From: an uncultured Paenalcaligenes sp. | GTDB taxonomy: Bacteria > Pseudomonadota > Gammaproteobacteria > Burkholderiales > Burkholderiaceae_B | DNA length: 60,517 nucleotides | Direction of reading: 5' to 3' | NCBI GenBank assembly: GCA_947626245.1 | Contig: CANQRK010000001.1 | Location: 1 to 60,517, forward strand | Part shown: positions 32,427-53,541 of the stretch, piece after piece | Position numbering within the stretch: position 1 is the stretch's first letter | Layout: every line of letters begins with the position of its first letter | The notes under the pieces: model-generated | What the model was told of the DNA's origin: nothing | What the model saw: only the letters and a program-made list of their open reading frames with translations | Databases searched by the model: none | Position numbers and translations under genes: made by a program

Positions 32427-33620
32427 ATGCGAGACTGGTCTGCCACGGCTTGGATGACAGGATTTCTGGCCGTACTTATTTCATATAGTGGTCCATTATT
32501 AATTTTTATCCAGGCGGCACACGTTGGGGGCATGTCTCCCGAGATGCTAAGTTCGTGGATTTGGGGGATATCCATTGGTGCGGGTCTAAGCGGTATTGTG
32601 CTCAGCCTATGGTTAAAAGCACCGATTATTACTGCTTGGTCTGCACCGGGAGCCGCCTTGCTGTTGAATGTGTTCCCAGCGCTTTCCATGGCCGAGGTCG
32701 TGGGCGCGTATTTAGGCGCGGCTCTTATCACGGTAGTGATTGGCCTAAGTGGCTATTTTGAAAAAATTGTGCAGTACATCCCACGTAGTTTGGCGGCCGC
32801 TATGATGGCGGGTATTTTATTTCAATTTGGAATCAAAGCCTTTGCTGCGAGTACAGATTTACCTGGGGTGGTATTGCTAATGCTTGGCACCTATGTGTTG
32901 TGTAGACGTTTTGTGCCAACGCTAACGGTGGTCGTTGTTGCCTTAGTCGGTTTTGCCAGTGTGTATTGGTTGGATCTGACACAGTTACAGCAGGTCAGTA
33001 TTACGTGGGCCAGTCCTATTTTTATCTGGCCCGATTTCAGTGTGTCTGCTTTTTTTAGTCTCACAGTACCACTCGTGGTAGTCAGCTTAACTGGGCAGTA
33101 TTTACCGGGCTTATTTGTTTTGCGCCTAGATGGCTACGAGGTCCCTTCGCGTGCCATTGTTAGTGGTACTGGTTTGATTTCCCTTGTCGTGGCATTTTTT
33201 GGGGGCATTTCTATTGTGCTAGCCTCCATTACCGCTGCCATTTGTACCGGTAAAGAATCGCATGTTGATCCAAAAAAGCGCTATGTGGCGGGTATTGCTA
33301 ATGGTGTGTTTTATGTGATTGGCGGTGTGTTGGCGGGCACGATTGTGTTGCTGTTCAACGCGATTCCAGCTGCACTGGTTGCCGCTTTGGCTGGCTTGGC
33401 GCTGATCGGTGCCATTATGTCTAATATTAAATTGCTAAGCGCTGATAATGCTTACTTAGAACCAGCGGTAATTACGTTTTTGATTACCGCATCGAATATG
33501 AGTATCTGGGGCATGGGCTCAGCTTTTTGGGGCATTATTTTGGGAATGGTGTCGTATTGGGTATTGGGCTTTAAAAAAACAAAGGGCTCAGGTCCTACAA
33601 GTACGGGAGAGAAACCATGA
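32427..33620 (+). CDS. benE: Benzoate/H+ symporter, BenE family
   Basis: PIITAWSAPGAALL, MMAGIL, ASITAAIC, AVITFLITAS, SAFWG. Confidence 0.92.
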   Translation: MRDWSATAWMTGFLAVLISYSGPLLIFIQAAHVGGMSPEMLSSWIWGISIGAGLSGIVLSLWLKAPIITAWSAPGAALLLNVFPALSMAEVVGAYLGAALITVVIGLSGYFEKIVQYIPRSLAAAMMAGILFQFGIKAFAASTDLPGVVLLMLGTYVLCRRFVPTLTVVVVALVGFASVYWLDLTQLQQVSITWASPIFIWPDFSVSAFFSLTVPLVVVSLTGQYLPGLFVLRLDGYEVPSRAIVSGTGLISLVVAFFGGISIVLASITAAICTGKESHVDPKKRYVAGIANGVFYVIGGVLAGTIVLLFNAIPAALVAALAGLALIGAIMSNIKLLSADNAYLEPAVITFLITASNMSIWGMGSAFWGIILGMVSYWVLGFKKTKGSGPTSTGEKP

Positions 33621-34891
33621 CAAGAACACTATTACAACCTGAGCACCAAGCGGCCGTGTTGCATGTGCTTCCAGACTACGCGCTCAGTGTGCAACGCCTA
33701 GCGGTGTTGGCCCAGAACGAGGCCGCGCCAGTGATCACCGTGATTGGCAAATACAATCATGGCAAGAGCAGTTTATTAAATGAGTTGGTCGGTGAGTCGG
33801 TATTTGCGGTAGCAGATAAACGGGAGACGGTGTGTTTGCAGCGCGTTGAGCAGACTGGAGTGACCTGGTTGGACGCCCCTGGTTTAGATGCCGATGTGCA
33901 CCAAGACGACGACCGCCATGCTGAGCTCGCTTTATGGGTCGAGTCCGACATCCGTTTAGTGGTGCATGCCGTCAAAGAAGGTGAGCTAGATGCCAGTGAA
34001 CTCGCCGTATTAAACGAATTACAACACGATATGTTGAGCACACAGCGTCAAGCAATAGTGGTGCTTAGTCAAACTGATCAGCTAGAAGACGACCAGACTC
34101 TAGAGCAGATACAAGCCAGTATTCAGCAGCAGTTACCTGCAGTACAAACCTATCCAGTGTCTGTGGTGCGCTATAGAAAAGGCGTGGATTCCTGTATTCC
34201 CTTGTTTGTGGAAAAGAGTGGATTTCCTGACTTACAAGCGCAGTTAAAGCAAGCCATTCAGCACGTGCCAGCCGCCAGAGCTCATGAGCAAGCACAGCGT
34301 ATCAAGCAGTTGCAAACGGCGCTACAGACTAAAAAAGAGCAAGTGTACGCCCAGCAGGTTGCCCTGCAACAGCAAGCCCAGCAAGCGCAACAGGGTTTTA
34401 GCCATGATTTACAACGTGCACTTGAACAGATTGCTGTTGACCTGCACGAGGTGATGCAAGAGCCTGAGCGCGATCATGCGTTGGACCCTGACACCATTCA
34501 CGATGTGTTTACGATGACAGCAGGCAAACGCGAACGCTCCCAATTGCAAATTGCCTATTCGCGTGCGTGTATTTTAATTCGTAGTGTATTGACGCAATAT
34601 GGCGTGGTGCATTTACCCAAAGCACAGCAGGTGGCGTCAGCGAGCTTAAGCACGGTGATGGTGGCGGTGATGGGTATTTCTGTTAAATACCGAGCCGATT
34701 TACGCCGCTTGTTTGGTGAGACAGCTGGGCGTGAGCGATTACATCGCGACTTTAGTGCCTATTTTGAGCGTTCCGAAGCACGATTAGCCTTGTTAGAGCG
34801 TATCACCCAGTTGCAAGCTGATTTAGTACAAATACAGACTGCTCTAGAGGTAGTCCAAACTTGGGAGTGTACGCATGAGTACAGCCTATAG
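33617..34891 (+). CDS. Dynamin-like/TRAFAC GTPase with helical C-terminus (gene 1 of pair)
   Basis: G1 GKYNHGKS, G2 RET, G3 DAPG, G4 variant SQTD; Gln-rich coiled-coil tail. Confidence 0.75.
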   Translation: MTRTLLQPEHQAAVLHVLPDYALSVQRLAVLAQNEAAPVITVIGKYNHGKSSLLNELVGESVFAVADKRETVCLQRVEQTGVTWLDAPGLDADVHQDDDRHAELALWVESDIRLVVHAVKEGELDASELAVLNELQHDMLSTQRQAIVVLSQTDQLEDDQTLEQIQASIQQQLPAVQTYPVSVVRYRKGVDSCIPLFVEKSGFPDLQAQLKQAIQHVPAARAHEQAQRIKQLQTALQTKKEQVYAQQVALQQQAQQAQQGFSHDLQRALEQIAVDLHEVMQEPERDHALDPDTIHDVFTMTAGKRERSQLQIAYSRACILIRSVLTQYGVVHLPKAQQVASASLSTVMVAVMGISVKYRADLRRLFGETAGRERLHRDFSAYFERSEARLALLERITQLQADLVQIQTALEVVQTWECTHEYSL

Positions 34892-36374
34892 CCAAGAAGT
34901 TGCTTTTATGAAGCAGGTAGCGACATTACGTTGCTCCGTCCAAGATCTGCAGGACGAGCAACAGCAGCAAAGTCTCTGGCTAGAGCGCATAGAGCAGGTG
35001 CTAGCAGCCGTTCAAATCCCAGCAGATGGTCTGACGCAACGTCATCCCCAGCAGCATGCTTTGCAGCAGCTGAAATCGATAGCCCAACAAAACATCCAGC
35101 AATGGCAACAGGCTAAACAAGACCTCGAACCTGTCTTAGCCTTGACGCGTTGGTTTGAGGACAAGGCTATTTTGTTAGTCTTTGGGAAATTTAATGCGGG
35201 GAAAAGCTCGTTTTGTAATTTTGTGGCGCAACGCTTTGCCTTTCACCAGTATAGCGTGCGTCATTTTACTCTAGAGCAGGGCGCTTTACGCTTTCATGAG
35301 GGGCCTTTTCAAGAGGGCAGCACAGAAACCACGGCGCATATTCAGGGGGTGATCTTAGCTGATAAACTAGTTCTTATTGATACGCCCGGTTTGCATTCGG
35401 TGACGGCGGATAACGCGGATTTAACGCAGCAGTTTATTGAAAGCGCCGATGGTGTATTGTGGTTGACCAGTTCGACCTCGCCAGGGCAAACCCAAGAGCT
35501 CGCCGAGCTGTCCCAAGAGCTAGGTCGAGGCAAGCCGTTATTGCCTATTATTACGCGTAGCGACTACCTAGATGAAAGGGTGGTCGACAATGCGATCTTA
35601 AAGGTTCTGTGTAATAAAAGTGCAGAAAACCGTTATTTGCAAGAAACGGATGTATGGCAACGTGCCCAAGACAGCTTAAGGCAAAACGAGCTATTTGACG
35701 ATTTGGTGCAAACACCGTTATCTATTTCTGTGTATTATGCGCGTCAGCATGAGCAGGCAGAACGTGATCTGCAGCAAGCGGGTTTGTATCGATTGTATGA
35801 CGGTTTGTTGGCCTTAATAGAGCCCATCATGGCGTATCAGTCTCGTAAAACGGTAACCATTGAGCAGCATTATTTACAAGAGCAGGTTAAACCGGCTGTG
35901 GCCTTGTTTATGCAGCGTCTAGATGACTTGCAGGCTCAGCTGCAGCAAGAGCAGCAAGCCATACCAGAGTTGACCCACGAGATGGTTACCGCTTTATGGC
36001 AGCAAACCATGGCCATTATGCCCAGTTTGCTTGATCGCTATACCGATCGGGCCCATGGGGCAGAGTTATTGTGCCAAGGGGTGCAGCAGGTACTTGCCGA
36101 TCAATTGCTGAGTTACTTAGAAACTCATCTATTTATGTATTGCTTAGATCTAGAAGAGGTGTTTGAGCCGCCTCATTTCGTGTGGCCCACCTTAAATCTA
36201 CAGGCTGAGTATTACGAGCAAAGCTATTTAACGCTAGAAAAAGGGGTGCTAGAGCAGCTCGAGGCCTATGCACGTGTAGTTAGCCTACAGGTACAAAGCA
36301 ATTTGGATCAGCCTTTGCTTGCTTTGCGACAGCTACAGGCTAGCTTAGATACGCAGATGGTGTGCTTAGCCTAA
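34875..36374 (+). CDS. Dynamin-like GTPase (gene 2 of pair)
   Basis: N-terminal helical region, G1 GKFNAGKS, G2 ETT, G3 DTPG, G4 variant TRSD, helical C-terminus; overlaps gene 1 by 17 bp. Confidence 0.78.
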   Translation: MSTAYSQEVAFMKQVATLRCSVQDLQDEQQQQSLWLERIEQVLAAVQIPADGLTQRHPQQHALQQLKSIAQQNIQQWQQAKQDLEPVLALTRWFEDKAILLVFGKFNAGKSSFCNFVAQRFAFHQYSVRHFTLEQGALRFHEGPFQEGSTETTAHIQGVILADKLVLIDTPGLHSVTADNADLTQQFIESADGVLWLTSSTSPGQTQELAELSQELGRGKPLLPIITRSDYLDERVVDNAILKVLCNKSAENRYLQETDVWQRAQDSLRQNELFDDLVQTPLSISVYYARQHEQAERDLQQAGLYRLYDGLLALIEPIMAYQSRKTVTIEQHYLQEQVKPAVALFMQRLDDLQAQLQQEQQAIPELTHEMVTALWQQTMAIMPSLLDRYTDRAHGAELLCQGVQQVLADQLLSYLETHLFMYCLDLEEVFEPPHFVWPTLNLQAEYYEQSYLTLEKGVLEQLEAYARVVSLQVQSNLDQPLLALRQLQASLDTQMVCLA

Positions 36375-36899: not shown

Positions 36900-38036
36900 A
36901 TGTCAATGGATACAAAGCTTCAACAGGTTCGGCTCTTTTGTGAAAATACGCAGCCTTATCAGGCGTCAGACGATAGGCTATTTATCGAGGCCATGCGTGA
37001 GCTAACTCAATGGCACCAAACTCATTGTGCTTGGTATGCTAGCTATTTAGAGCAAGCTGATATACGACCGGATCAATTACAAACCATAGATGATCTTGTG
37101 CATTTACCCCCTGTGCACGCTAATTTTTTTAAATACCACGAAATCAAATCCATTCCCGATGATGAAGTCGTGCTGCACCTGACGTCGTCCGGTACGACTG
37201 GGCAAAAATCACAAGTCTTTTTCGATGAGTTTACTATTACTCAAGCTCGACGCATGGTGCAAAACACACTTGAGGCCCGAGGTTATTTAAGTAACGAGCC
37301 GTGTAATTACTTGGTCAACGCGTTTGAGCCATATTCCGGTTTTAAAGTCGGCACCTCTAACACCAATCAATACTTAATGCGTTTTGCGCCGGCTGCTGAA
37401 GTGTTCTGGAGCTTACGTTTAGTGGCTGATCAACAGCACGAATACGATGCGTTTGGAACGGTGGCCGCCTTAGAGCGTTTTGCACAAAGCGCTGAGCCCA
37501 CTCGAATTATTGGCTTTCCGGCTTTTTTACATTTCACCCTAGAACGCATGGCGGCTTTGGGTAAGTCCCCTTTGCGCTTACCTGAAAATAGTTGGGTTGT
37601 GTTTGGGGGCGGCTGGAAAGGTCACGCTAACCAAGCCATTGATCGCGACGAGTTCGTAGAAAATATTCATTACTGGTTAGGCATTCCCAAAAGCCACATT
37701 ATTGAAACCTTTGGTTCGGTGGAACACTCTATTCCCTATGTAGGTTGTGCCGAGCAGCATCTGCATATACCGGTGTGGTCTAAGGTGGTGGTTCGAGATG
37801 TGGCTACATTAGCGCCTGTGCCCGATGGCGAAACGGGCTTTCTGTCTTTTTTATCCCCTTATATTACCTCTGTACCAGCTCATAGCGTGGTCATGGGGGA
37901 TTTGGCGCGTTTACATCCTGCTGGCAGCTGCTCTTGTGGTAATCCAACGGCGTGGTTTGAGGTCATTGGTCGAGCCGGTACCTCTAGCAATAAAAGTTGT
38001 GCGGCGGCGGCCGCTGAAGTTTTGTCTAACCGATAA
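36900..38036 (+). CDS. luxE: LuxE-family acyl-protein synthetase
   Basis: FFK, TSSGTTGQKS P-loop, GGGWKG, MGDL, C-terminal GRAGTSSNKSCA with the acyl-accepting Cys (TGT 37998). Confidence 0.85.
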   Translation: MSMDTKLQQVRLFCENTQPYQASDDRLFIEAMRELTQWHQTHCAWYASYLEQADIRPDQLQTIDDLVHLPPVHANFFKYHEIKSIPDDEVVLHLTSSGTTGQKSQVFFDEFTITQARRMVQNTLEARGYLSNEPCNYLVNAFEPYSGFKVGTSNTNQYLMRFAPAAEVFWSLRLVADQQHEYDAFGTVAALERFAQSAEPTRIIGFPAFLHFTLERMAALGKSPLRLPENSWVVFGGGWKGHANQAIDRDEFVENIHYWLGIPKSHIIETFGSVEHSIPYVGCAEQHLHIPVWSKVVVRDVATLAPVPDGETGFLSFLSPYITSVPAHSVVMGDLARLHPAGSCSCGNPTAWFEVIGRAGTSSNKSCAAAAAEVLSNR

Positions 38037-38066
38037 TCACGATCACACTATCCGAGGGGGGAATAC

Positions 38067-40628
38067 ATGAACGCGCAGACAACAACCGAGTCCGAAGCGG
38101 TGCATTATTGGTTTGGACGCTGGGTGACAGATACCCAGCTAAGTGAGGCGATAGACACAGAGCTTGCAACGCAGATCAGTCAGACCTTGGCTCAGTCATT
38201 TCCATTCGAAGCGCTGATGGTGGCATGTCAGTCTTTAAGCCATGACTTAAAAACGCGGAGTGCGAGCTATACGTTATTACAGCACTACATGCAAAATTGG
38301 CTCGCTGCTGATGAGCTAGAAGGGGTGCTGACACAGCTGAGCCAAATTCTAGAGCCCAATTATCTACAGACCAAATTACGCAAAGAGCTAGGCACCACCG
38401 CTCCCAATATTCTTGAGCGCAGTTACCCCGAGTCCTACTATGAAATGTGGGCGCCTATGGGGTGCTTGGTCCATGTCATGCCGTCTAATGTGTTTGTGGT
38501 GGCTGCTTTGGGTTTGCTCGAGGGGCTGCTAGCTAATAATGTGAATGTGGTGAAGCTCAGTGCTCGTGATACCTCGTTTGCGGCCTTATTTGCCCAAGAG
38601 CTAGTTCGGCACGATAGCAGTCAGCGCTTACAGCAGTATGTGGCAGTATTACGTCTGTCTTCTCAACAAGACACAGTACTAAAACGTCTATTTAAACAAG
38701 CAGATGCGGTGTCGGCATGGGGCGGGGAAACCGCTATTGCTGCGATACGGGCTCAGGTGCCTGCACATGTACGTGTTATTACGTGGGGGCACAAGGTGTC
38801 CTTTGGTTATATCAGCCAGAGCTATCACGACGATGAGGCGACATTATTGGCTTTTGCTTTGGATGTGTGTCGTTTAGATCAACAAGCGTGTTCTAGTCCT
38901 CAAACGTTATTTGTAGAAACGGAATCCCCTGAACAATTAGTTGCTTTAGGGCAGCGGTTGGCCCGGGCTTTGGCACAGGTGTCGCCCACTGTACCGGCAG
39001 ATTCGCCAGATAGGGCGGCTCAGGCTGAAATAACTACCGTATTAAGTGTGGCCAAAGCCGAGCAAGCCATGGGGCTCTGTCACGTGATCGAATCACCTAG
39101 TCATGATTGGCGCGTGATCATTGATTTTCGTACCAGTTTAAAACCATCGCCGCTGTATAGGACCATTTGGTTAGTGCCTATGCAGCGCCATGACCTAACT
39201 GCTGTACTAAGACCCATGCGTGCATGGCTGCAAACCTGCGGTTTGGCGGCGGGCTATCCCGAGGCCGCAGAGTTAAGCCGACTGTTATTGGCAGCTGGTG
39301 TAACGCGTATTACTCGACCCGGACAAATGGTAGACAGCTATAACGGTGCACCCCACGATGGTGTGTATGCGTTACAGCAGTTTATGCGACGTATTTCGGT
39401 GGAATTAGATCCTAGCTTTGCTCAAGTAGGATCCCTAGCACAACTGCGTGTCCAACAGCCCACTCTTACGGCCCAACAGACCCAAGCTAGCATCATGAGC
39501 AAATACGACTTTCAGCAATTAGCGAACCAAGACGATCCCGAGGCGGGACTCATTGTACGTAGTGGTGGTTCTAGTGGCATGGTGGCGTACTCGTCGTTTC
39601 GTTGGCCAGATTATGCACGGCAGATGCAAGCCACTGGTCATGGATTGGTGGCAGCAGGCTTAGATCCCAAAAAAGACGTGGTCATGAATCTATTTGCTGC
39701 GGGTTATATGTACGGCAGCTTTATTAGTTTTTGGACTATTTTAGAGCAGATGCAAGTGCGGCAATTGCCGATGACGATGGTGTCTGACTACGAGTTAATT
39801 GCTAATGAAATTATTCGCCATAAAGTGACTACCTTAGTAGGTATGACACCCCATTTATTGGGTTTGTTTACGCATCAGGGCGCACGCCTACACGCCTATG
39901 GCGGCTTAGAAAAAATATTTTATGGTGGTGAAGGTTTATCTGCTGCCCAGTACGATTTTTTACATAAAGAGCAGGGCATTGCACTGGTGAAATCGGCGGC
40001 CTATGGGTCAAATGACGCCGGGCCGATGGGATATCAGTGTGAGCACAGTCAGGGTGGTGTGCATCATCTTATGTCCAGTTTGCAGCATTTAGAAATTGTA
40101 AAACTAGATAAGGACGAGCCCGTCGAGGGGACACAGGTCGGACGTTTGTTATTTACCTCTAAGGCACGTAGCTTTCCCACGGTGACACGTTATGAAATTG
40201 GTGACTTAGGCCGCTGGGTGACTACCCCGTGCGCTTGTGGGCGTACCGATCAGCGGTTTGAGCTAATGGGGCGTTTAGGGGATGTATTTAAAGCGGGTTC
40301 GCCATTGTTAAATTACCAGACTTTTGCACGCTTGCTAAGCGAGGGGTTTCAATACGCAGGCAGACTGCAAATCCATTTAGATAGCGAGGGCGCCTATACG
40401 GTATTGCGTTTATGGGTAGATCATAGTTTACAGGCCAAACCAGAGGAAGTCTTAGACTATTTGTTTGAGCAGTACCTTGATTTACAAGCCATTCAAACGC
40501 TGAATCTAGCGGTACGGGTGTTGCTAGAGCCTCGAACCGAGGAGGAGTTTGTACGTGTGCAGGCCAGTGGGAAAATTCCTCACGTCTGCGACCATCGCGT
40601 CAATCGCGCTTCGGAGGAAATGCTATGA
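38067..40628 (+). CDS. luxC: Fusion: LuxC-family acyl-CoA/acyl-protein reductase (about 38067-39400) + PaaK-like adenylation domain (about 39490-40628)
   Basis: HVMPSN, VKLS, AWGGE, WGHKVSF, catalytic DQQACSSPQ, PHDG; then RSGGSSG, FYGGE, YGSND, RYEIGD, GR, GKI ANL motifs. Confidence 0.85.
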   Translation: MNAQTTTESEAVHYWFGRWVTDTQLSEAIDTELATQISQTLAQSFPFEALMVACQSLSHDLKTRSASYTLLQHYMQNWLAADELEGVLTQLSQILEPNYLQTKLRKELGTTAPNILERSYPESYYEMWAPMGCLVHVMPSNVFVVAALGLLEGLLANNVNVVKLSARDTSFAALFAQELVRHDSSQRLQQYVAVLRLSSQQDTVLKRLFKQADAVSAWGGETAIAAIRAQVPAHVRVITWGHKVSFGYISQSYHDDEATLLAFALDVCRLDQQACSSPQTLFVETESPEQLVALGQRLARALAQVSPTVPADSPDRAAQAEITTVLSVAKAEQAMGLCHVIESPSHDWRVIIDFRTSLKPSPLYRTIWLVPMQRHDLTAVLRPMRAWLQTCGLAAGYPEAAELSRLLLAAGVTRITRPGQMVDSYNGAPHDGVYALQQFMRRISVELDPSFAQVGSLAQLRVQQPTLTAQQTQASIMSKYDFQQLANQDDPEAGLIVRSGGSSGMVAYSSFRWPDYARQMQATGHGLVAAGLDPKKDVVMNLFAAGYMYGSFISFWTILEQMQVRQLPMTMVSDYELIANEIIRHKVTTLVGMTPHLLGLFTHQGARLHAYGGLEKIFYGGEGLSAAQYDFLHKEQGIALVKSAAYGSNDAGPMGYQCEHSQGGVHHLMSSLQHLEIVKLDKDEPVEGTQVGRLLFTSKARSFPTVTRYEIGDLGRWVTTPCACGRTDQRFELMGRLGDVFKAGSPLLNYQTFARLLSEGFQYAGRLQIHLDSEGAYTVLRLWVDHSLQAKPEEVLDYLFEQYLDLQAIQTLNLAVRVLLEPRTEEEFVRVQASGKIPHVCDHRVNRASEEML

Positions 40629-41935
40629 CTGCAGCCATGAGTTGGCCAATGATCGATGCACAGCATAAAGCAGATCAACTGACGCAGTTATTACTTTTTG
40701 CGCGTCAAAATTCGCCCTATTATCGTCAACTGTATCAAGCCATACCCGAACAAAGTACTCGCTTGACGGATTACCCAATTTTGCATTTAGAGTCGTTTTG
40801 GCAAGCTAATGGAACGGAAAATAATCAAGTTCTCACTGCTTCACGTACGGATGGCATCACTTTTAAAAGCGGGGGCTCAACCGGTAAGCCCAAATATTCG
40901 GTATTTAGTAATGCCGATTGGGTCGCTTTTACTCAGGCCTTTGGGCAGGGCATGCGCCGTAGTGGTTTACAGACCGGTGAGTCCATTGGTAATTTATTTT
41001 ATGCCGGTAGTTTATATGCTTCGTTTTTATTTATTACGCGCAGCATAGAGCAGGCTCAAGCCGGTATGTGCTATCCCATTGCTGGCATCGATCTACATGA
41101 CACGCTTGCCATTTGGAAAGAGTTTAATCTGTCTACCTTAGCCGGGGTGCCAACAACGCTAATGAATTTGCTAACCTTACTTGATGAGGACCCTGCCGAT
41201 TCTTTATCTCTAAAGCAGTTCTTATACGGTGGCGAACCTATGTTTGCCGATCAGGTTGAGCGCTTACATCAGTATTTTCCACAATGTCAGGTGCGGTCTA
41301 TAGGCATTGCAGGCGTCGATTATGGCGAGCTTGGATGGGCTTGCCCCAGTGGCGAGTTAGGAGTGCATCATTGTTTTGATGACAGTACCTATTTGGAAAT
41401 TGTAGATGATGCAGACCAACCCATTACGCAGATGGGCGTGACCGGTCGTTTGGTCTTGACCAATTTAACGCGACGGGTCATGCCGATTATTCGTTATCCT
41501 GTAGGGGATGTGGGGATGTGGGTAGACCCTGAGGGTACTCCATGGCGCCGTTTCAAGGTGTTGGGACGTAGCCAAGATGGTGCACGTGTTGGGCCTATGA
41601 CGTTGTATACCGATGATGTTATGCAGCTCATTCAGGACTTTAATCGTCAAGGCACTGAGCTAAAAATTATTAACTTCCAAATCAAAGTTACCCATTTTGA
41701 GCATAAAGATGCGTGTACCTTGTGTTTGGTAGCCGATACGACAGAGGCTGATTTGTCCCAGCTAAATCAAGACTTATGTCAGCAGCTGTATCAGTTCCGT
41801 CCTATGTTTGAAGATTTAATAGCAAAACAGATCGTGCACCCTTTGCGTATCGAGTGGCTAACCCAATCTGAGTTGATGACCAATCCACGCACAGGAAAGC
41901 TGTTGCGCTTAATAGACCAACGCCATCAGAATTGA
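40625..41935 (+). CDS. Phenylacetate-CoA-ligase (PaaK)-like adenylating enzyme
   Basis: NSPYYR, KSGGSTGKPK, YGGE, PIIRYPVGD, LGR, TGKL; ATGA overlap with the fusion gene. Confidence 0.85.
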   Translation: MTAAMSWPMIDAQHKADQLTQLLLFARQNSPYYRQLYQAIPEQSTRLTDYPILHLESFWQANGTENNQVLTASRTDGITFKSGGSTGKPKYSVFSNADWVAFTQAFGQGMRRSGLQTGESIGNLFYAGSLYASFLFITRSIEQAQAGMCYPIAGIDLHDTLAIWKEFNLSTLAGVPTTLMNLLTLLDEDPADSLSLKQFLYGGEPMFADQVERLHQYFPQCQVRSIGIAGVDYGELGWACPSGELGVHHCFDDSTYLEIVDDADQPITQMGVTGRLVLTNLTRRVMPIIRYPVGDVGMWVDPEGTPWRRFKVLGRSQDGARVGPMTLYTDDVMQLIQDFNRQGTELKIINFQIKVTHFEHKDACTLCLVADTTEADLSQLNQDLCQQLYQFRPMFEDLIAKQIVHPLRIEWLTQSELMTNPRTGKLLRLIDQRHQN

Positions 41936-41955
41936 ATCACTCCTAACTATTTATC

Positions 41956-43485
41956 ATGACCCACTATATTACCAACACAGGCTTAGCTTGGATTAGTCTA
42001 CGATTACCGGCTCATTTGTATGCGATACCTATGATTCAGCAAACGCTGTGCAGCCAAGCACAGCATTGGGGCTTTGCACCCAGTACCGTATTGCAAATGG
42101 AACTGGCCGTCGAAGAGGCCATCACCACCATTTTGCAGCTGACTCATGGCGAGCATGCCATTGATGCCCAGACACCCAGTGCGGGACATTTTGATATTCG
42201 AATTAGTGTGTTGGACCATGCGTTGCAGCTACGTATTACGGATTATGATTTGCCCTATGACTTATCCATGATCCCGTTGTTTTCACCATCAAGCAGCACT
42301 GACAGTGATAATAAACTGGGTTTGTCGTTTTATTTATTGAGTCAGCTAGTCGATGGCCTGCAAGTGCATCATCCCGGCATTCAGGGGCAAAGTCTAGAGC
42401 TAGAGTGGAAAGTCCCAGCAATTAGCTCTACAGCCATGCCCTCAACACCAGAGCGGATGCTTTCCATTGAGCCATCAGCGACAGATATTCAGATTCGTCC
42501 GTTAGCAGACAGTGATGCCATTTATGTGGCGCGTCTCATGCATCAAAACTATGGGTATTCTTATGTGAATCCCGATCTGTACATAGCAGAACGAATTGTA
42601 TTGCGCACGAATGACGGGCGACTCAGTTCGATGGTGGCCGTGGATGCGCAGCAACAGGTGGTGGGACATTGTGCATTGATGAAAACCACCTCGACTAGCT
42701 CTGTCGTCGAGCTAGGGGCTGCGGTGGTGTCTCCAGCTAAACAAGGGTTAGGTATTTTTAATCGCTTGTGGCAATCGCTAGAAGACCAATTGCCGCAACG
42801 TGCCGAGTACGTGGCCTGCGTGCATGCGGTCACTAGTCATCCTTTTACGCAGAAAACCGTGCTTAGGCATGGCTATGTAATGAGTGCGCTGTTGTTGGCT
42901 TATACGCCATTAAGTCTGCAGTTTAAAAGTGTGAGCGATAAAGCGAATGCTGAACGGGGCTCGGTATACTATTGTTGTAAACTGCTGCAGCCTTTAGCGC
43001 CTTTGTTGGTGTATGTACCAGAGCCTGACCGGGATTTAGTGTTGGAGTTAGCGCAGCAGTTGCAGATGCCTTTGCAGTGTGTATCGAGTCATAGCATGCA
43101 CCTTGATACAGCGAATACCGTACTGCATTATCACTTGGAAAGCAGTTTAAATAGTGCATTTATGCACTGCGATACGTGGGCTGCAGACGGTGCATTGGAA
43201 CTGACACGCTTATGGAAATACTTGTGTCGCGAGCGTGTGGATACGTTGTATTTTTCTATTGATTTAACCCAAGCTCATGCACCGGCTTTAGCGCAGCAAT
43301 TAAGACGTTTAGGGTTTATTAGTGCGGGGTTAACGCCGTACATGCCGTACCCCGCCACCTTGCTTTTGCAATATATTAATAATCAAACATTGAGTGAGCA
43401 GAATGTGGTGGCGGTGGGGGAAAATGCCGAGAAGATTAAGCAGCGAGTATTTGCTGAATACAAACAAAACGAGCTGTTAGCATAA
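41956..43485 (+). CDS. Fusion of a degenerate RsbW-like HATPase domain and a GNAT acyltransferase domain
   Basis: N-terminal LRLPA..ELAVEEA..RITD..GLSFYLLSQLVD; then IRPL..YGYSY..VVGHCAL..ELGAAVVSPAKQGLGIF (GNAT motif A), HPFTQK. Confidence 0.78.
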   Translation: MTHYITNTGLAWISLRLPAHLYAIPMIQQTLCSQAQHWGFAPSTVLQMELAVEEAITTILQLTHGEHAIDAQTPSAGHFDIRISVLDHALQLRITDYDLPYDLSMIPLFSPSSSTDSDNKLGLSFYLLSQLVDGLQVHHPGIQGQSLELEWKVPAISSTAMPSTPERMLSIEPSATDIQIRPLADSDAIYVARLMHQNYGYSYVNPDLYIAERIVLRTNDGRLSSMVAVDAQQQVVGHCALMKTTSTSSVVELGAAVVSPAKQGLGIFNRLWQSLEDQLPQRAEYVACVHAVTSHPFTQKTVLRHGYVMSALLLAYTPLSLQFKSVSDKANAERGSVYYCCKLLQPLAPLLVYVPEPDRDLVLELAQQLQMPLQCVSSHSMHLDTANTVLHYHLESSLNSAFMHCDTWAADGALELTRLWKYLCRERVDTLYFSIDLTQAHAPALAQQLRRLGFISAGLTPYMPYPATLLLQYINNQTLSEQNVVAVGENAEKIKQRVFAEYKQNELLA

Positions 43486-43487
43486 CG

Positions 43488-43832
43488 TTATATTGCTAGA
43501 GCCTGCAGAGCCGCTTCCTGATCAGGGTAGGCGGTCATAATGTTAAAAAAGCCGCTGATCTCAAACACATGATGTACATGGGGCTGTAATCCACATAAGG
43601 CAAAGTCGAGGTTTTGGGCCTTGGCCTGTTTGGCTGCCATTAAAATAAGACGTAAACCGGCGCTAGCCATATAGTCTAAACCATGCAGGTTAATTAAAAT
43701 GGGGCCAGAGCTGTTTTTTATATGGCTTAAAAAATCAGATTCAATATGGCTGCTATTTAGGCTATCAAGTCGCCCTGTCAAATGTAATAGCAAGACAGAC
43801 TGATTGTGTTCCGAGTGTAACTGAATGCTCAT
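43488..43832 (-). CDS. STAS-domain anti-anti-sigma-type protein (SpoIIAA/RsbV-like)
   Basis: LTGRLDS, LDYMASAGLR with the phospho-acceptor Ser, VFEISGF. Confidence 0.9.
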   Translation of the reverse strand: MSIQLHSEHNQSVLLLHLTGRLDSLNSSHIESDFLSHIKNSSGPILINLHGLDYMASAGLRLILMAAKQAKAQNLDFALCGLQPHVHHVFEISGFFNIMTAYPDQEAALQALAI

Positions 43833-46225
43833 AGGTCTCCTTGTGGGGGCGCTAGGTGTTTATAAAGACGAATGCAATTATACGAATCGTGACGGCTATA
43901 GCTGTATTCATCCATTAGACGTTTAATAAGATGAATACCCATGCCACCAATATGACGTTGACTCAGTTCTGCTTGCAGGTCTGGGGTTTCATTATGGGTA
44001 AACGGGTTAAAGGCGAGCCCTTGGTCTTGAATTTGGCAGCAGACATGATCCTCATAGATCGTCAGACTCAGCTCAATCAGACTTTGGTCTGCAGGTTCAC
44101 CGTGTTTAATGATATTGTTGATGAGCTCATCCAAACAGAGGCTGATATCAAATACGATCTGTGGGGAGCGTTGTATAAGAGGAGTTAAAAAATCTTCTAT
44201 TTGTGGAACTAGACGAGCAAAGTCTGTCAGGTCGGGCGCTAGTGTCCACGAGGCTTGATGAATAGGTGGTCGTTGATTTTGTAGTCGTAGTAACAATACG
44301 GTCATATCGTCATTGGGTTCTGCTTGGCCTACAAAGCGGTGTAGTTGCTGTTTGAGCGTAGCAAATAGGTCTTGAGTCGAGCGGTGTTTGCCGTGCTCTG
44401 TTAGCCATTGTATTAGGCGTGTTTCACCAAACTCTTCTTGAGTTTCTGACATGGCTTCGGTAATGCCATCACTATAAATGAACAGCATGTCCGATGGGGC
44501 AAGTTGTCTGGAAAAACAGTGATAGTTCACTTCATCCCATGCACCCAAGGGTAAATCGTAGGCCACAGGCAGAGGGCTGACGCTGCCATCAGCGTGCCGT
44601 AGTAAAGCCGGAGGGTGGCCCGCACACGCATAGCTAAATTCGGTTGTTTTTGGATCAAAAACTCCATAGAAAACGGTGACAAAGAGCGAGGCAGGGTTAC
44701 GCTCATTGAGTAACTGATTAGCAAAACGTAGAACGTGATCGGGAGCCTGATAGGTAGCAACAGCCTGCTTTAAAATGGTGCTAGACACCCCCATGAAAAA
44801 CGCAGAAGCAATTCCTTTGCCGGACACATCAGCCACTAACACTGCGTAACGCCCATCACTGAGCTCAAAGCAATCATAAAAATCCCCGCCTACTTCGCGT
44901 GCTGGGCGCATATTGGCATAGATTTGAAACTGTTCTTTATGTGGAAATTCATGCGGCAAAATGGCTTGCTGCATATCGTGAGCTAACTGTAGCTCTTGGT
45001 CAATGCGTGCATAAAAGTCAGCTAATAAACGGTTTTTTTCCGTGAGCTCGTGCGTGCGCTGCTGTACTAAGGTGTCCAACACAAACTCGCGATGATAGAC
45101 CTCAGTGATCATGGCTTGAAAGACCTTGGCAAAATGACCTAGTTCGTCGTTACGCTGGGTGACTAAATCCAAGTCAGTATTGTGTTCGGGCGCCAAACGG
45201 TGGCCTTCTTTGATTTGTTTGGCTTGCTCCATGAGTACATTAAGGGGGCGAATGAAACTACGACTAAATAGCCATGCCAATGCAATACTGCCTAGTCCAC
45301 AAAACAGGAGAAAAAATCCATTTTTATAAAAAAGGGCATGGATAGGAGCCGCAAAGTTTTGATAGGGCTCGGCCACAAATACTGACCAGTCTTGATAATG
45401 AATAGGAGCGACGCCAGCGACAAAAAGACGAGAATTCAAGGTGAATTCAATACTTTGAGAGCGTTCAAAAGACAGGTTGTAATGGGTTTGCAAAGAGGGC
45501 AGATCGCGTAGGTGTTGATAGCGATAGTCGGGATTAGGGTGATAAATAATCTGCTCGTGTTGATCAATTAAAAAAGGAATGAGCACATAATCTTGAAAGC
45601 TACCTTTGATGAAAATCTCATCGACGGCTTCTAGATTTAGTTTAATCACCACTACTCCAATGACGTGTTGCGAGGCATTGAATACGGGGGCCGAAAAGAA
45701 AATACCTTTTTGATGAGTGGTCGTGCCTTCGGTTACACCCGTGACGTGGCTATTGCCTTGAATGGCAGTTTGAAAGTAGTCTCTAAATCCGGCATCAAAG
45801 TCCATGAGCTGAGGCAAAGAGGCGGTAAGCACAAGGCCATCTAAACCAATCAAACTGACATAATCGATGTGTGGCAAGGAATGAGTTAACAGATCTAAAT
45901 CGTTATCGACTTGTTCTTTGACATTGAGTTGGTTGGGATTTTCTAAAAAACGGACAATGTCAGGGTCTTTGGCTAAGGATTGAGCAAAAGTATGATGTTG
46001 ATTTAATAGGTGGTCAATTTGTACTGATAGATTGTGGGCGTTAAGCTCTAGGTGTTCTTTTTGGTCTAGCTCGACTTGGTTTAAACTGCTGTGCAAGCTG
46101 AGGTAGCTTAGGAGCGCTAAAGGCAGTAGCGAGGTCAGTAAAAAAACAATAATTAATTTATAGGTTAGGGGCCAAGCGCCAAAACTCATTTTTCTAAGTC
46201 GAGTTGATGCTTTTTTTCTGTGCAT
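43829..46225 (-). CDS. Membrane sensor: TM-Cache-TM-HAMP-PP2C(SpoIIE)-HATPase (RsbW-type kinase)
   Basis: Two TM segments, FRDYF Cache motif, RNDELG HAMP, EVGGDFYD/ADVSGKG/SDGITEA/DDMT PP2C, ELINNIIKHG/DQG/GGMG kinase; probable start ATG 46225 (track gives 46252). Confidence 0.9.
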   Translation of the reverse strand: MHRKKASTRLRKMSFGAWPLTYKLIIVFLLTSLLPLALLSYLSLHSSLNQVELDQKEHLELNAHNLSVQIDHLLNQHHTFAQSLAKDPDIVRFLENPNQLNVKEQVDNDLDLLTHSLPHIDYVSLIGLDGLVLTASLPQLMDFDAGFRDYFQTAIQGNSHVTGVTEGTTTHQKGIFFSAPVFNASQHVIGVVVIKLNLEAVDEIFIKGSFQDYVLIPFLIDQHEQIIYHPNPDYRYQHLRDLPSLQTHYNLSFERSQSIEFTLNSRLFVAGVAPIHYQDWSVFVAEPYQNFAAPIHALFYKNGFFLLFCGLGSIALAWLFSRSFIRPLNVLMEQAKQIKEGHRLAPEHNTDLDLVTQRNDELGHFAKVFQAMITEVYHREFVLDTLVQQRTHELTEKNRLLADFYARIDQELQLAHDMQQAILPHEFPHKEQFQIYANMRPAREVGGDFYDCFELSDGRYAVLVADVSGKGIASAFFMGVSSTILKQAVATYQAPDHVLRFANQLLNERNPASLFVTVFYGVFDPKTTEFSYACAGHPPALLRHADGSVSPLPVAYDLPLGAWDEVNYHCFSRQLAPSDMLFIYSDGITEAMSETQEEFGETRLIQWLTEHGKHRSTQDLFATLKQQLHRFVGQAEPNDDMTVLLLRLQNQRPPIHQASWTLAPDLTDFARLVPQIEDFLTPLIQRSPQIVFDISLCLDELINNIIKHGEPADQSLIELSLTIYEDHVCCQIQDQGLAFNPFTHNETPDLQAELSQRHIGGMGIHLIKRLMDEYSYSRHDSYNCIRLYKHLAPPQGDL

Positions 46226-47842: not shown

Positions 47843-49456
47843 CTAAAAACCATAGAGTTGTGCGGGATTACGCACAAGAATTTGTTCAATTAAAGCTTCG
47901 TCGTTATCCACCCAACTAAAAAACTCTTCTAATAGATTGGTGTCATCTGGCATGGGAGTATTAATACAAACATGAGGCCAGTCTGTGGCCCATAAAATAT
48001 GTTCAGAGTTACTTTGGATAAGCGCTTTGGCTAGAGGAGCCACATCCGAATAAGGGCTTTGCGTTTGGCTTGTAAAACGATAGGCTCCAGATAGTTTTAC
48101 CCAGGCTTTGCCTTCTTGTAAAAGGCGAATAAGCTCTTGGAAGCGAGGGTGGGAAACGCCGATATTTGTGGGCATATGACCCATATGATCGATGACTACT
48201 TCAACAGGCAAGTAGGCGAGGGTTTCATATAAGTCAGCAAACTCAGAAATATCGACTAAGAGTTGTAAGTGCCAACCTAGCGGGGCAATTTTATAGGCCA
48301 GACTAGTGACATCAGACACTTCGACCCCACTTTTATATAGTAAATTGATGCGTACCCCCCGCACCCCTAGGGCATGCATATGCCATAACTCGCTGTCTGG
48401 TGTGTGCTCACTGATTACTACTACACCTCTGAACTGGTCACCACTGCGCTCTAGGGTGTCGAGTAAGAGTTGATTGTCATAGCCGTAGACACTGGGTTGC
48501 ACAATGACTCCGCGACTTAAGCCTAAGGTCTTTTGTAATTGCAAGTATTGTGTGAAGCTTGCGCTAGGGGGAGTGTAAGATCGATGCGCCGTAAAAGGAT
48601 AGGTAGTTGCTTCACCAATAATATGAAAATGGCAGTCACAAGCATTAGCAGGTAAAGGGAGTTGAGGCTTGTGACTCGCAGGTAGCGGCGCAGGACATGG
48701 AGGCGCATAGGTTTCTCCTAATGTTGTCATGCGAGTGATCTCCCACCCTTGTAAGCCCCGAATACCATTGCGCTCAGCAGAGTGAATAACATGTTGCCAA
48801 GCAGCTCGTCGAGCTAAGTCGGGATCGCCCAAACGGATTGCATCAAAGATAGCTTGATATTCTTGAATTAACGTGGTTTTTAAGGTGTTAGAGCTAATCA
48901 ATCGTTGTTCTAACGATGTTGCATCTAAGGTGTTTTGAGTTAGGTGGATGACGAAGCTCTCAAAATACTCATTGCCTGTTGCTTCCACAATGGCTTGCTT
49001 AAAAGCCAAACTCTTTTCTACCAAATTGGTATCTGTCCAAGCCGCTTGTCGTAGTTCAATAAACAGCTGCTGAATTTTTTCGAGTTGTTCTCTAGAGCGT
49101 CGTCTGGCAGCCATGCCAGCTGCAGAAATTTCTAAATCTAAACGCATCTCGTAAAGCTGACGTAATTTAGCTAAGTCACCTTGCACTTCTGCATTGTTGA
49201 TTCTGAAGCCTGAGCGTAAGTTTTTCTTAGAAACAAACGTACCAATTCCTTGATGGCTTTCTACAAGACCTTCCGACTTGAGGCGCGCGACAGCCTCTCG
49301 TACTACATTACGGCTTACTTTGAATTGATCACATAACTGGGCTTCTGTGGGTATGCGAGCCCCAGCAGCTAGGTGACCTTGACGTATTTCTTGTTGTAAG
49401 TAGTTTGAAATTTCAACAGAGAGTTGGCGGCGAGCGGTTGTAACAGGTTTCTTCAT
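47843..49456 (-). CDS. Fusion: FadR/GntR regulator (wHTH+FCD) + amidohydrolase-2 (LigI-like lactonase) domain
   Basis: GARIPTEAQLCDQFKVSRNVVREAV..GIGTFV; then CDCHFH, RSYTPP, QPSVYG, DHMGH, WVKLSG, TDWPH, NPAQLYGF in one frame; ATG 49456 (TTG 49462 alternative). Confidence 0.85.
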   Translation of the reverse strand: MKKPVTTARRQLSVEISNYLQQEIRQGHLAAGARIPTEAQLCDQFKVSRNVVREAVARLKSEGLVESHQGIGTFVSKKNLRSGFRINNAEVQGDLAKLRQLYEMRLDLEISAAGMAARRRSREQLEKIQQLFIELRQAAWTDTNLVEKSLAFKQAIVEATGNEYFESFVIHLTQNTLDATSLEQRLISSNTLKTTLIQEYQAIFDAIRLGDPDLARRAAWQHVIHSAERNGIRGLQGWEITRMTTLGETYAPPCPAPLPASHKPQLPLPANACDCHFHIIGEATTYPFTAHRSYTPPSASFTQYLQLQKTLGLSRGVIVQPSVYGYDNQLLLDTLERSGDQFRGVVVISEHTPDSELWHMHALGVRGVRINLLYKSGVEVSDVTSLAYKIAPLGWHLQLLVDISEFADLYETLAYLPVEVVIDHMGHMPTNIGVSHPRFQELIRLLQEGKAWVKLSGAYRFTSQTQSPYSDVAPLAKALIQSNSEHILWATDWPHVCINTPMPDDTNLLEEFFSWVDNDEALIEQILVRNPAQLYGF

Positions 49457-49565
49457 CGGCAATTTATTAATAAGTAGAAGTTTTTAGCCTAAGGCCAGAA
49501 AGAAAGAGCTGAGGAATACGATGCCACTATGATACCACCGCTCTTGACCTGCTACTCATATTAAC

Positions 49566-52635: not shown

Positions 52636-53541
52636 ATGGGAGTTGAATCGATTATTTCTTCTTGTACTGCACCGACCATTCCTGGGGCAGATTTGAATCC
52701 TAAATTACCTCAAGATCGTTTACCTGTTGGGTCATGTGATACCCATGCACATTTATTTGGCCCTGAGGTGAAGTACCCCTACCATATAGCACGTTCTTAT
52801 ACTCCGCCTGATGCGACGTCGGCTCAGTATAAAGCTATGTTGAAGACGATGGGTTTCACTCGTGCTGTGCTAATTCAACCTAGCGTATATGGAACAGATA
52901 ATCGCTTGATGCTAGATTATTTGCTTCAAGCTCAGGCAGATCCAGATATAGAGTGGCGTGCTGTGGCGGTAGTGGACTCAACGGTTACTGAGCAAGAGCT
53001 ATTGCACATGCATCACCTTGGGGTGCGAGGCGTGAGGGTGAACTTGGTGTTTCCCGGAGGGATTGCCTTTGAGGAGGTAATCCAATTAGGTCATCGAATT
53101 GCTCCTTTAGGATGGCACATTCAATTGTTAATCGATGTATCGACCTTTGAGCATCTAGAGCAACGAATCACCCAACTACCTGTGCCCGTAGTGATTGACC
53201 ATATGGGACATTTAGCAACGTCTAAAGGGATAGAGAATCCGGGTTTTCAAGTATTACTTAAGCTAGTAAAGCAGGGGTGTGTATGGGTCAAGCTGACGGG
53301 ATCCAATCGCATCACGCAACTTGAATCAGCGCCATTTTATGACGTGGATGTTTTTTTCTTGAGTTTGCTTGAAGCGAACGCTAATCGATGTTTGTTTGGC
53401 ACCGATTGGCCGCATGTGCAGATACCTACGCCTATCCCGAATGATGGTGACTTGGTCGATGAGTTTCTTCGATTAGTGCCTGATGAAGCAAGGCGTTGGC
53501 AGATTTTGGTGCATAATCCAGCCCATTTATATGGTTTTTAA
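52636..53541 (+). CDS. Amidohydrolase-2 family lactonase (LigI / 2-pyrone-4,6-dicarboxylate hydrolase-like)
   Basis: CDTHAH, RSYTPP, QPSVYGTDN, GVRGVR, DHMGH, WVKL, GTDWPH, NPAHLYGF. Confidence 0.88.
   Translation: MGVESIISSCTAPTIPGADLNPKLPQDRLPVGSCDTHAHLFGPEVKYPYHIARSYTPPDATSAQYKAMLKTMGFTRAVLIQPSVYGTDNRLMLDYLLQAQADPDIEWRAVAVVDSTVTEQELLHMHHLGVRGVRVNLVFPGGIAFEEVIQLGHRIAPLGWHIQLLIDVSTFEHLEQRITQLPVPVVIDHMGHLATSKGIENPGFQVLLKLVKQGCVWVKLTGSNRITQLESAPFYDVDVFFLSLLEANANRCLFGTDWPHVQIPTPIPNDGDLVDEFLRLVPDEARRWQILVHNPAHLYGF

What the first reader, a model, noticed from the sequence alone, without database searches (positions are those of the whole stretch)
36900..46225. Luciferase-less luxE/luxC acyl-reductase operon facing a sigma-less partner-switching module: candidate undescribed system
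Seen: four tightly linked + genes (LuxE; LuxC fused to an adenylation domain; a PaaK-like ligase; HATPase-GNAT) end 2 bp from a convergent pair (STAS; Cache-HAMP-PP2C-kinase). No luxA/B/D/G and no sigma factor lie in the window. The LuxE C-terminal Cys and LuxC DQQACSS Cys are intact. Established: LuxE+LuxC reduce fatty acids to aldehydes; STAS/PP2C/HATPase trios form partner switches. Inference: three acid-activating domains, a reductase and an acyltransferase make or attach an acyl or aldehyde-derived product, under post-translational control by an extracytoplasmic signal. The HATPase domain on the GNAT is what links the two operons.
Basis: partly seen in the sequence, partly recalled or inferred. 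Interest (0 to 1): 0.88.

Follow-up and report, generated by a model that had tools for sequence, protein, structure and literature searches.

The report
Leupeptin-type operon with a phosphorylation switch
The four genes are not leftovers of the bacterial light pathway but counterparts of the known leupeptin operon, so they likely make a small protease-blocking peptide aldehyde, and the extra regulatory domain on the capping enzyme plus the two signalling genes next door would let an outside signal switch the pathway on or off at the protein level, which is untested.

Summary
All six genes are real and intact. The four-gene operon is not undescribed: it matches Klebsiella leupABCD gene for gene and in order (44, 40, 36 and 28% identity; reference locus anchored with published primers). 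It likely makes an N-acyl peptide aldehyde without an NRPS. The product is probably not leupeptin itself: two predicted pocket positions differ and no MFS exporter is adjacent.

What remains new is the control layer. The LeupD counterpart carries an RsbW-like domain that has lost its ATP-binding residues. A STAS protein, a phosphatase and a kinase lie within 4 kb in 8 of 20 GTDB loci with this fusion and in 0 of 57 without it. They occur in six gene layouts, including an archaeon. In this genome the fusion is the only strong RsbW-like domain besides the kinase.

Against this: 11 of the 20 have neither STAS nor phosphatase nearby, most relatives of the fusion stand alone, 53 of the 57 controls are Actinomycetota, and binding was not tested.

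Verdict: new variant of a known pathway; direct partner-switch control of the acyltransferase about 40% likely.

The parts
36900..38036 (+). LeupA counterpart: LuxE-type acyl-protein synthetase, carrier Cys367
   Evidence: PF04443 E 7e-36; 44% identity over 378 aa to LeupA of L113; Cys aligned to 7XC6 LuxE
38067..40628 (+). LeupB counterpart: LuxC-type thioester reductase (Cys275) fused to a PaaK-type ligase domain
   Evidence: PF05893 E 4e-92, PF00501 E 2e-5; 40% over 767 aa to LeupB; motifs intact
40625..41935 (+). LeupC counterpart: free PaaK-type AMP-forming ligase
   Evidence: 36% over 422 aa to LeupC; family profile matches PaaK 2Y4O at E 5e-30
41956..43485 (+). LeupD counterpart: GNAT acyltransferase (about residues 176-350 plus a further C-terminal alpha/beta region) with an N-terminal RsbW-like domain (about residues 10-155) that lacks the N-box Asn and the G1 and G2 glycines
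   Evidence: 28% over 145 aa to LeupD, family profile finds LeupD at E 7e-39; model pLDDT 90.9, fold matches SpoIIAB Z 13.8, RsbW Z 13.3, GNAT Z 13.9; residues T58, D98, S124
43488..43832 (-). Single-domain STAS protein (anti-sigma antagonist type), predicted phospho-site Ser57
   Evidence: PF01740 E 3e-20, TIGR00377 over cut-off; Ser57 invariant in 8 of 8 cluster-linked STAS proteins
43829..46225 (-). Membrane sensor: dCache_1 - HAMP - SpoIIE/PP2C phosphatase - RsbW-type serine kinase, with phosphatase and kinase motifs intact
   Evidence: PF02743, PF00672, PF07228 E 3e-49, PF13581 E 5e-21; motifs located

Best explanation
The four + strand genes match the leupeptin operon leupABCD gene for gene and likely make an N-acyl peptide aldehyde without an NRPS, and the convergent STAS and sensor phosphatase-kinase genes probably control that pathway at the protein level through the RsbW-like domain on the acyltransferase. 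Inferred chemistry: the GNAT caps an amino acid with an acyl group; the two PaaK-type ligases each form one peptide bond; the LuxE-type enzyme activates the terminal carboxylate and holds it on Cys367; the LuxC domain takes it on Cys275 and reduces it to the aldehyde. Which enzyme does which step is my inference from domain chemistry, since I could not read the original paper. The product probably differs from leupeptin. Inferred control: a periplasmic ligand sets the balance between the phosphatase and kinase domains of the sensor, which sets phosphorylation of STAS Ser57; unphosphorylated STAS would dock on the catalytically degenerate RsbW-like domain of the acyltransferase and change its activity. 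Odds: leup-type pathway 0.9; product not leupeptin itself 0.65; switch acts on this pathway 0.55; by direct docking on the acyltransferase 0.4.
For: Pathway. Published leupA_f and leupB_r primers (PMC8283571) both match 8 of 8 metagenome loci, with the published 1,235-base spacing in 6 of 8. In L113 the four genes span 5,835 bases (published 5,831) and match the window genes in order at 44, 40, 36 and 28%. [quoted passage not shown] PMC11212599 describes the route as separate AMP-dependent ligases plus a reductase. The Klebsiella-type loci nest inside the tree of this family. Amino-acid permeases flank four loci (L017, L020, L021, L022). Switch. STAS, SpoIIE and a free kinase lie within 4 kb in 8 of 20 loci with the fused domain and 0 of 57 without; four further enterobacterial-type loci without the fusion also have none. 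Six different layouts and at least three sensor types occur, and the label needs at least 5 gains or losses on a 31-row tree. In the genus, leupA and SpoIIE are both present in 2 of 5 genomes and both not found in the other 3, and the six-gene block has different flanks in the two. In those two genomes the two strongest RsbW-type matches are the kinase and this fused domain, and the cluster STAS is the only stand-alone STAS found.
Against: No metabolite, binding or expression data. 11 of 20 fusion loci have neither STAS nor SpoIIE within 4 kb and one has SpoIIE only; six of the 11 (L016, L021, L023, L026, L028, L034) have over 5 kb of flank on both sides. The 0 of 57 control is 53 Actinomycetota, so not independent; L046 has a STAS 4.3 kb away, just outside my cut, and 3 have an unrelated-looking SpoIIE. 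Five of the 8 positives are one Dokdonella-like lineage. Reciprocal test: of 24 GNAT-family loci in a 201-genome phylum sample only 4 are in leup operons and 2 have STAS plus SpoIIE nearby; 9 of 10 full-length archaeal loci fetched have neither. SpoIIE is common in the family anyway (74 of 151). No MFS exporter lies beside the window operon or L010. Identity to LeupD is low and covers only 145 residues.
Confidence: 0.55

Rival explanations
1. Leup-type peptide-aldehyde operon whose neighbouring switch does not act on the acyltransferase: it regulates something else (transcription, biofilm, an unknown target) or only travels with the operon, and the fused RsbW-like domain is a structural relic.
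For: The fused domain has lost its ATP-binding residues here. Most fusion proteins have no STAS or SpoIIE nearby. SpoIIE modules are common in the family (74 of 151). STAS proteins with unknown non-sigma targets are known (SypA, BtrV; passages of PMC8256260).
Against: The switch neighbours only operons with the fused domain in my sample (8 of 20 vs 0 of 57), in six layouts, two of them co-directional single runs (L039, L187). Related GNATs without the domain sit next to a STAS gene in 5 of 5 archaeal loci fetched.
Confidence: 0.33
2. One reading: a luciferase-less fatty-acid reductase that makes a fatty aldehyde, lipid or protein acylation.
For: LuxE and LuxC Pfam matches with both catalytic cysteines intact.
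Against: Far below the NCBIfam cut-offs for true LuxE and LuxC (104.7 vs 550; 100.7 vs 750 bits). Much closer to LeupA and LeupB (E 5e-106 and 1e-167) than to 7XC6 LuxE and LuxC (E 1e-20 and 8e-17; different programs). Two extra ligases and a GNAT are explained by leup and not by lux. No LuxA/LuxB match in the genome.
Confidence: 0.05
3. A LuxE/LuxC route to the queuosine precursor preQ1 that replaces QueC and QueF, as earlier scan notes propose for LuxE-LuxC-aminotransferase operons.
For: QueC was not found in this 92%-complete genome.
Against: QueF is present. The cluster has no aminotransferase or que gene. The operon is not found in 3 of 4 congeners or in 399 other class genomes, unlike a housekeeping route.
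Confidence: 0.02

Closest known systems
leupABCD plus MFS, leupeptin operon of Klebsiella michiganensis, Xenorhabdus and Photorhabdus (Li et al. 2020, PMID 32609431; not seen, known here through citing passages in PMC8283571, PMC11480411, PMC11212599 and bioRxiv 10.64898/2026.08.25.747093)
   Same: Four genes, same order, same LuxC::ligase fusion, catalytic motifs shared, 44/40/36/28% identity.
   Different: LeupD counterpart is 509 aa with an RsbW-like domain against 305 aa; no adjacent MFS; adjacent STAS and sensor phosphatase-kinase; a different subclade; LeupC loop AG[D]LY reads AG[S]LY and LeupA GTSFT[D] reads GTSNT[N]. In Klebsiella the reported control is transcriptional, by Neu5Ac.
LuxC-LuxE fatty acid reductase of luminous bacteria (PDB 7XC6; PMC6279958 passages)
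   Same: Acyl-AMP to LuxE Cys to LuxC Cys to aldehyde relay; both cysteines conserved.
   Different: Below the NCBIfam cut-offs; no luxAB match; extra ligases and GNAT.
SypE/SypA of Vibrio fischeri and other partner switches with non-sigma or unknown output (PMC8256260 passages)
   Same: One protein with both serine kinase and phosphatase domains acting on a single-domain STAS protein with a conserved serine.
   Different: Here the input is a periplasmic dCache domain, and a candidate target, an RsbW-like domain on an enzyme, is encoded next door.
HenR/All4160/Alr3423 of Anabaena (bioRxiv 10.64898/2026.04.08.717354; abstract and discussion read)
   Same: A partner-switch-like module proposed to regulate a biosynthetic enzyme directly.
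   Different: There the STAS domain is fused to a glycosyltransferase; here an RsbW-like domain is fused to an acyltransferase and STAS is free. That paper did not test enzyme activity in vitro.

Membership tests
leupABCD leupeptin cluster | LuxE-type synthetase, LuxC::ligase fusion, free PaaK-type ligase and GNAT, in that order | tested here: met
leupABCD leupeptin cluster | Sequence kinship of each gene with the primer-anchored Klebsiella genes | tested here: met
   44/40/36/28% identity; one family in trees, different subclade
leupABCD leupeptin cluster | Catalytic cysteines and adenylation motifs intact | tested here: met
leupABCD leupeptin cluster | Adjacent MFS transporter (counted as a component in the 2026 preprint) | tested here: not met
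   Flanks are a DUF4870-like gene and the STAS gene; none in L010 either. Hence filed as leup-type variant, not as the leupeptin cluster
leupABCD leupeptin cluster | Product is acyl-Leu-Leu-argininal | not testable with these tools
   No metabolite data; two acidic positions of Klebsiella LeupC and LeupA are S and N here
lux operon | luxA and luxB present | tested here: not met
   3 luciferase-family genes, none matched LuxA/B families; genome 92% complete
lux operon | LuxE and LuxC over NCBIfam equivalog cut-offs | tested here: not met
   104.7 vs 550 and 100.7 vs 750 bits
lux operon | luxD present | not tested
   No search run
RsbU/V/W-type partner switch | STAS with conserved serine, PP2C phosphatase motifs, RsbW-type kinase with N, G1 and G2 boxes | tested here: met
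RsbU/V/W-type partner switch | A sigma factor as output | tested here: inconclusive
   None among 38 window proteins scanned; no genome-wide test of a target
RsbU/V/W-type partner switch | STAS binds the RsbW-like domain of the acyltransferase | not tested
RsbW/SpoIIAB serine kinase (N-terminal domain of 41956-43485) | N-box Asn, G1 DxG and G2 GLG | tested here: not met
   T58, D98, S124 where 62, 92 and 64% of 172 relatives have N, G, G; fold and Glu54 kept
LuxE/LuxC route to preQ1 (earlier scan notes) | Aminotransferase or que genes in the operon, QueF lacking | tested here: not met
   QueC not found

The most novel reading that the evidence does not exclude
A widespread family of acyltransferases carries an RsbW-like docking domain and is the direct enzymatic output of partner switches. 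In leup-type operons from Proteobacteria to methanogenic archaea, differently built sensor-phosphatase/STAS/kinase modules were recruited repeatedly to gate the first step of peptide-aldehyde synthesis after translation, and this clade makes an unknown, probably non-arginine aldehyde.
Probability: 0.4. Interest if true: 0.7.

Novelty: new variant of a known kind. Interest (0 to 1): 0.42.

Why it matters
If true, it would give a defined, testable non-sigma target for a free STAS protein, which is unknown for systems such as SypA, and an example of signal-gated control of a natural-product pathway at the enzyme level. If the switch link fails, this is a distant member of a known pathway.

Tried and rejected

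Original leupeptin paper: not held; whether its phylogeny or supplement already shows operons with the fused domain or the switch is unknown.

Literature searches built on lux terms did not find the pathway; the leupeptin link came from my recall (note) and was then tested. Searches for a link between leup or GNAT fusions and STAS/SpoIIE listed no such paper in this library, judged from listings only.

A metagenome scan with the 146-row GNAT alignment found no conserved seed; the reciprocal test was done with genome samples instead.

A 400-genome class sample gave no further leup operon (0 of 399 scored, 1 not scored), so no larger proteobacterial control was obtained.

Promoter and terminator scans were below shuffle expectation. 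GC and GC3 show no anomaly.

The dCache ligand could not be assigned; by my recalled motif it does not fit the amino-acid-binding type.

The careful ML tree did not finish; the quick tree is reported.

Tambjamine TabE is a LuxC-like reductase in a different cluster type; rejected.
Full report
1. Observation. All six ORFs are present at the stated places with the stated domains. The convergent stops are two bases apart. LuxE Cys367 and LuxC Cys275 align with the cysteines of the 7XC6 chains; the review PMC6279958 (passages) names these as the acyl-carrying residues. The genome (2.19 Mb, 92% complete) holds one copy of the operon and three luciferase-family genes, none matching LuxA/B. Both Lux-like proteins fall far below NCBIfam's cut-offs for true LuxE and LuxC.

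2. Conservation. These are ranked by similarity, not a random sample: 53 Actinomycetota, 14 Pseudomonadota, 6 Bacteroidota and 7 others including one archaeon. All 80 have the LuxE-like gene, 78 the free ligase and 77 a GNAT; the misses are at contig ends. MFS exporters and amino-acid permeases (Trp/Tyr, branched-chain, APC) flank several loci. The operon is patchy: with the 509-aa protein as query, 4 of 151 family genomes have a full-length match, the window included, and with the LuxE-like gene none of 399 other class genomes.

3. Identification. The permeases and the set of one acyltransferase, three adenylation domains and one reductase recalled the leupeptin operon (my recall, noted). I tested it. 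PMC8283571 (passages) gives leupA and leupB primers, a 1,235-base product and a 5,831-base leupABCD span. The forward primer matched 8 metagenome loci; all 8 hold the reverse primer and 6 give 1,235 bases. In L113 the genes are MFS, 378 aa, 801 aa, 446 aa and 305 aa, spanning 5,835 bases. They match the window genes in order: 44% over 378, 40% over 767, 36% over 422, 28% over 145 residues; a profile of the window's GNAT family finds the fourth at E 7e-39. A 2026 preprint (passages) names the same five components, and PMC11212599 (passage) describes the route as separate AMP-dependent ligases plus a reductase. I could not read the original paper. In trees of LeupA plus the reductase domain, the Klebsiella-type loci nest within the family and the window lies in another subclade, nearest to Comamonadaceae loci (51 rows; 31 of them, quick ML). 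The window's GNAT domain groups with the same neighbours.

4. Product. All catalytic motifs are kept. Two positions differ. The LeupC loop that aligns with PaaK's FGYGLF segment (its role as substrate pocket is recalled) has D in Klebsiella and D or E in most loci, but S in the window and K, R or Q in its relatives. LeupA's GT-x-x-T-D has D in Klebsiella and in 48 of 53 actinobacterial loci and N in the window clade. Loss of acidic residues suggests a different, perhaps non-arginine product. This is inference without a ligand-bound structure.

5. The fused domain. The model of the 509-aa protein is confident (pLDDT 90.9). Residues 9-156 match SpoIIAB and RsbW (Z 13.8 and 13.3) and residues 176-350 match GNATs (Z up to 13.9); the C-terminal region was barely tested. 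The fusion family is large (1,244 representatives at E 1e-30, a count that includes partial matches). The window protein lacks the N-box Asn and the G1 and G2 glycines, while the kinase domain on the sensor keeps them. The fused domain is degenerate in the window, L010, L029 and L187 but intact in L020, L039 and the Dokdonella-like loci, so loss of activity is lineage-specific.

6. Link to the switch, for. Among the 80 loci, STAS, SpoIIE and a free kinase lie within 4 kb in 8 of 20 with the fusion and 0 of 57 without (profiles built from these same loci). Four enterobacterial-type loci without the fusion have none. With the window, L010, L187 and L194 there are six layouts: convergent with kinase fused to phosphatase (window, L010); two upstream layouts (L020, L029); SpoIIE directly after leupD (five Dokdonella-like loci); SpoIIE-STAS-kinase-MFS-leupABCD in a methanogen (L039); and leupABCD-STAS-kinase-SpoIIE in one run (L187). 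Sensors differ (two dCache types, 5TMR-LYT). The label needs at least 5 changes on the tree. In the genus, leupA and SpoIIE are present together in 2 of 5 genomes and not found in 3; the block has different flanks in the two. There the cluster STAS is the only stand-alone STAS found and the fusion is the only strong RsbW-type match besides the kinase. STAS Ser57 is invariant in 8 of 8 aligned.

7. Link to the switch, against. Eleven of 20 fusion loci have neither STAS nor SpoIIE nearby, six of them with over 5 kb of flank each side; one has SpoIIE only. The control group is 53 of 57 Actinomycetota; L046 has a STAS 4.3 kb away. Five of the 8 positives are close kin. In the reciprocal direction, a 201-genome phylum sample gave 24 loci in 20 genomes, all fetched: 4 in leup operons, 2 with STAS plus SpoIIE, one more with SpoIIE only; some contigs are short. 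A 121-genome archaeal class sample gave 18; I fetched 15 of the 17 new ones: 1 of 10 full-length proteins is in a leup operon with the switch and 9 stand alone, while 5 of 5 GNATs without the fused domain sit beside a STAS gene. SpoIIE occurs in 74 of 151 family genomes, and all 12 further genomes with a leup-type locus that I checked have one somewhere, so control from another locus is possible but uninformative. Binding could not be modelled.

8. Mechanism. Shown: gene content, homology, intact or lost motifs, co-occurrence. Inferred: acyl capping by the GNAT, two peptide bonds by the two PaaK-type ligases, activation on LuxE Cys367 and reduction at LuxC Cys275; sensor-set phosphorylation of STAS Ser57; docking of STAS on the degenerate RsbW-like domain. 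The sign of regulation and the ligand are unknown. Because a leup-derived pyrazinone acts as a signal in Klebsiella (PMC11480411 passages), the sensor might read the pathway's own product; untested.

9. Novelty. The pathway type is known. Partner switches without a known sigma output are known (PMC8256260 passages), and one acting on an enzyme has been proposed (Anabaena preprint). Searches listed no paper joining leup with STAS/SpoIIE or describing the fusion; this library lacks most subscription papers, including the original. An earlier scan note (e1-3342020) also saw the fused domain in Bacteroidales; I reached the leup reading before seeing it, and it is not independent evidence. Verdict: new variant of a known kind, interest 0.42.

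Noticed in passing
L204 5699-9837, L205 8026-12041, L206 7856-11986, L207 5502-9650, L208 7025-9010: In an archaeal class sample, a STAS gene directly precedes a LeupD-like GNAT without the RsbW-like domain; in four of five an ATP-grasp ligase and an MFS-like gene follow (Pfam confirmed ATP-grasp in L204-L206 and MFS in L204). Possibly a second STAS-linked acyl-peptide pathway.
   Followed up: partly
L175-L186, L188, L190, L193, L195-L203: Many RsbW-like::GNAT fusion genes stand alone, without leup or STAS neighbours; their substrate and partner are unknown.
   Followed up: partly
L189, L191, L192: A deeper-branching leup-like group with rearranged order; L191 and L192 carry an extra 450-aa protein with no Pfam match.
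   Followed up: partly
L131 4830-10588 (plasmid CP054717; also CP053580): A leupABCD-type operon on Salmonella plasmids; CP054717 is typed as conjugative IncF. Large Streptomyces plasmids carry the fusion gene too.
   Followed up: partly
L024-L092 (53 Actinomycetota loci): Leup-type operons with a different 380-aa GNAT are common in Streptomyces, Kitasatospora and Kutzneria and mostly keep the acidic positions of Klebsiella; a Streptomyces preprint attributes leupeptin to an NRPS cluster instead.
   Followed up: partly
window 47843-49462 (-): GntR-FCD regulator fused to an amidohydrolase (4-sulfomuconolactone hydrolase-like), divergent from TRAP-like transporter genes and a second such amidohydrolase at 52636-53541.
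   Followed up: no
window 33617-36374 (+): Pair of overlapping dynamin-like GTPase genes just upstream of the operon, appended to a benzoate/catechol catabolic run; not near the cluster in L010.
   Followed up: no
G000 whole genome: QueF present but QueC not found; genome is 92% complete.
   Followed up: no
L020 9657-11300; L211 6077-7467: The free ligase of L020 and the fusion gene of L211 are each split into two ORFs (frameshift or assembly error).
   Followed up: no
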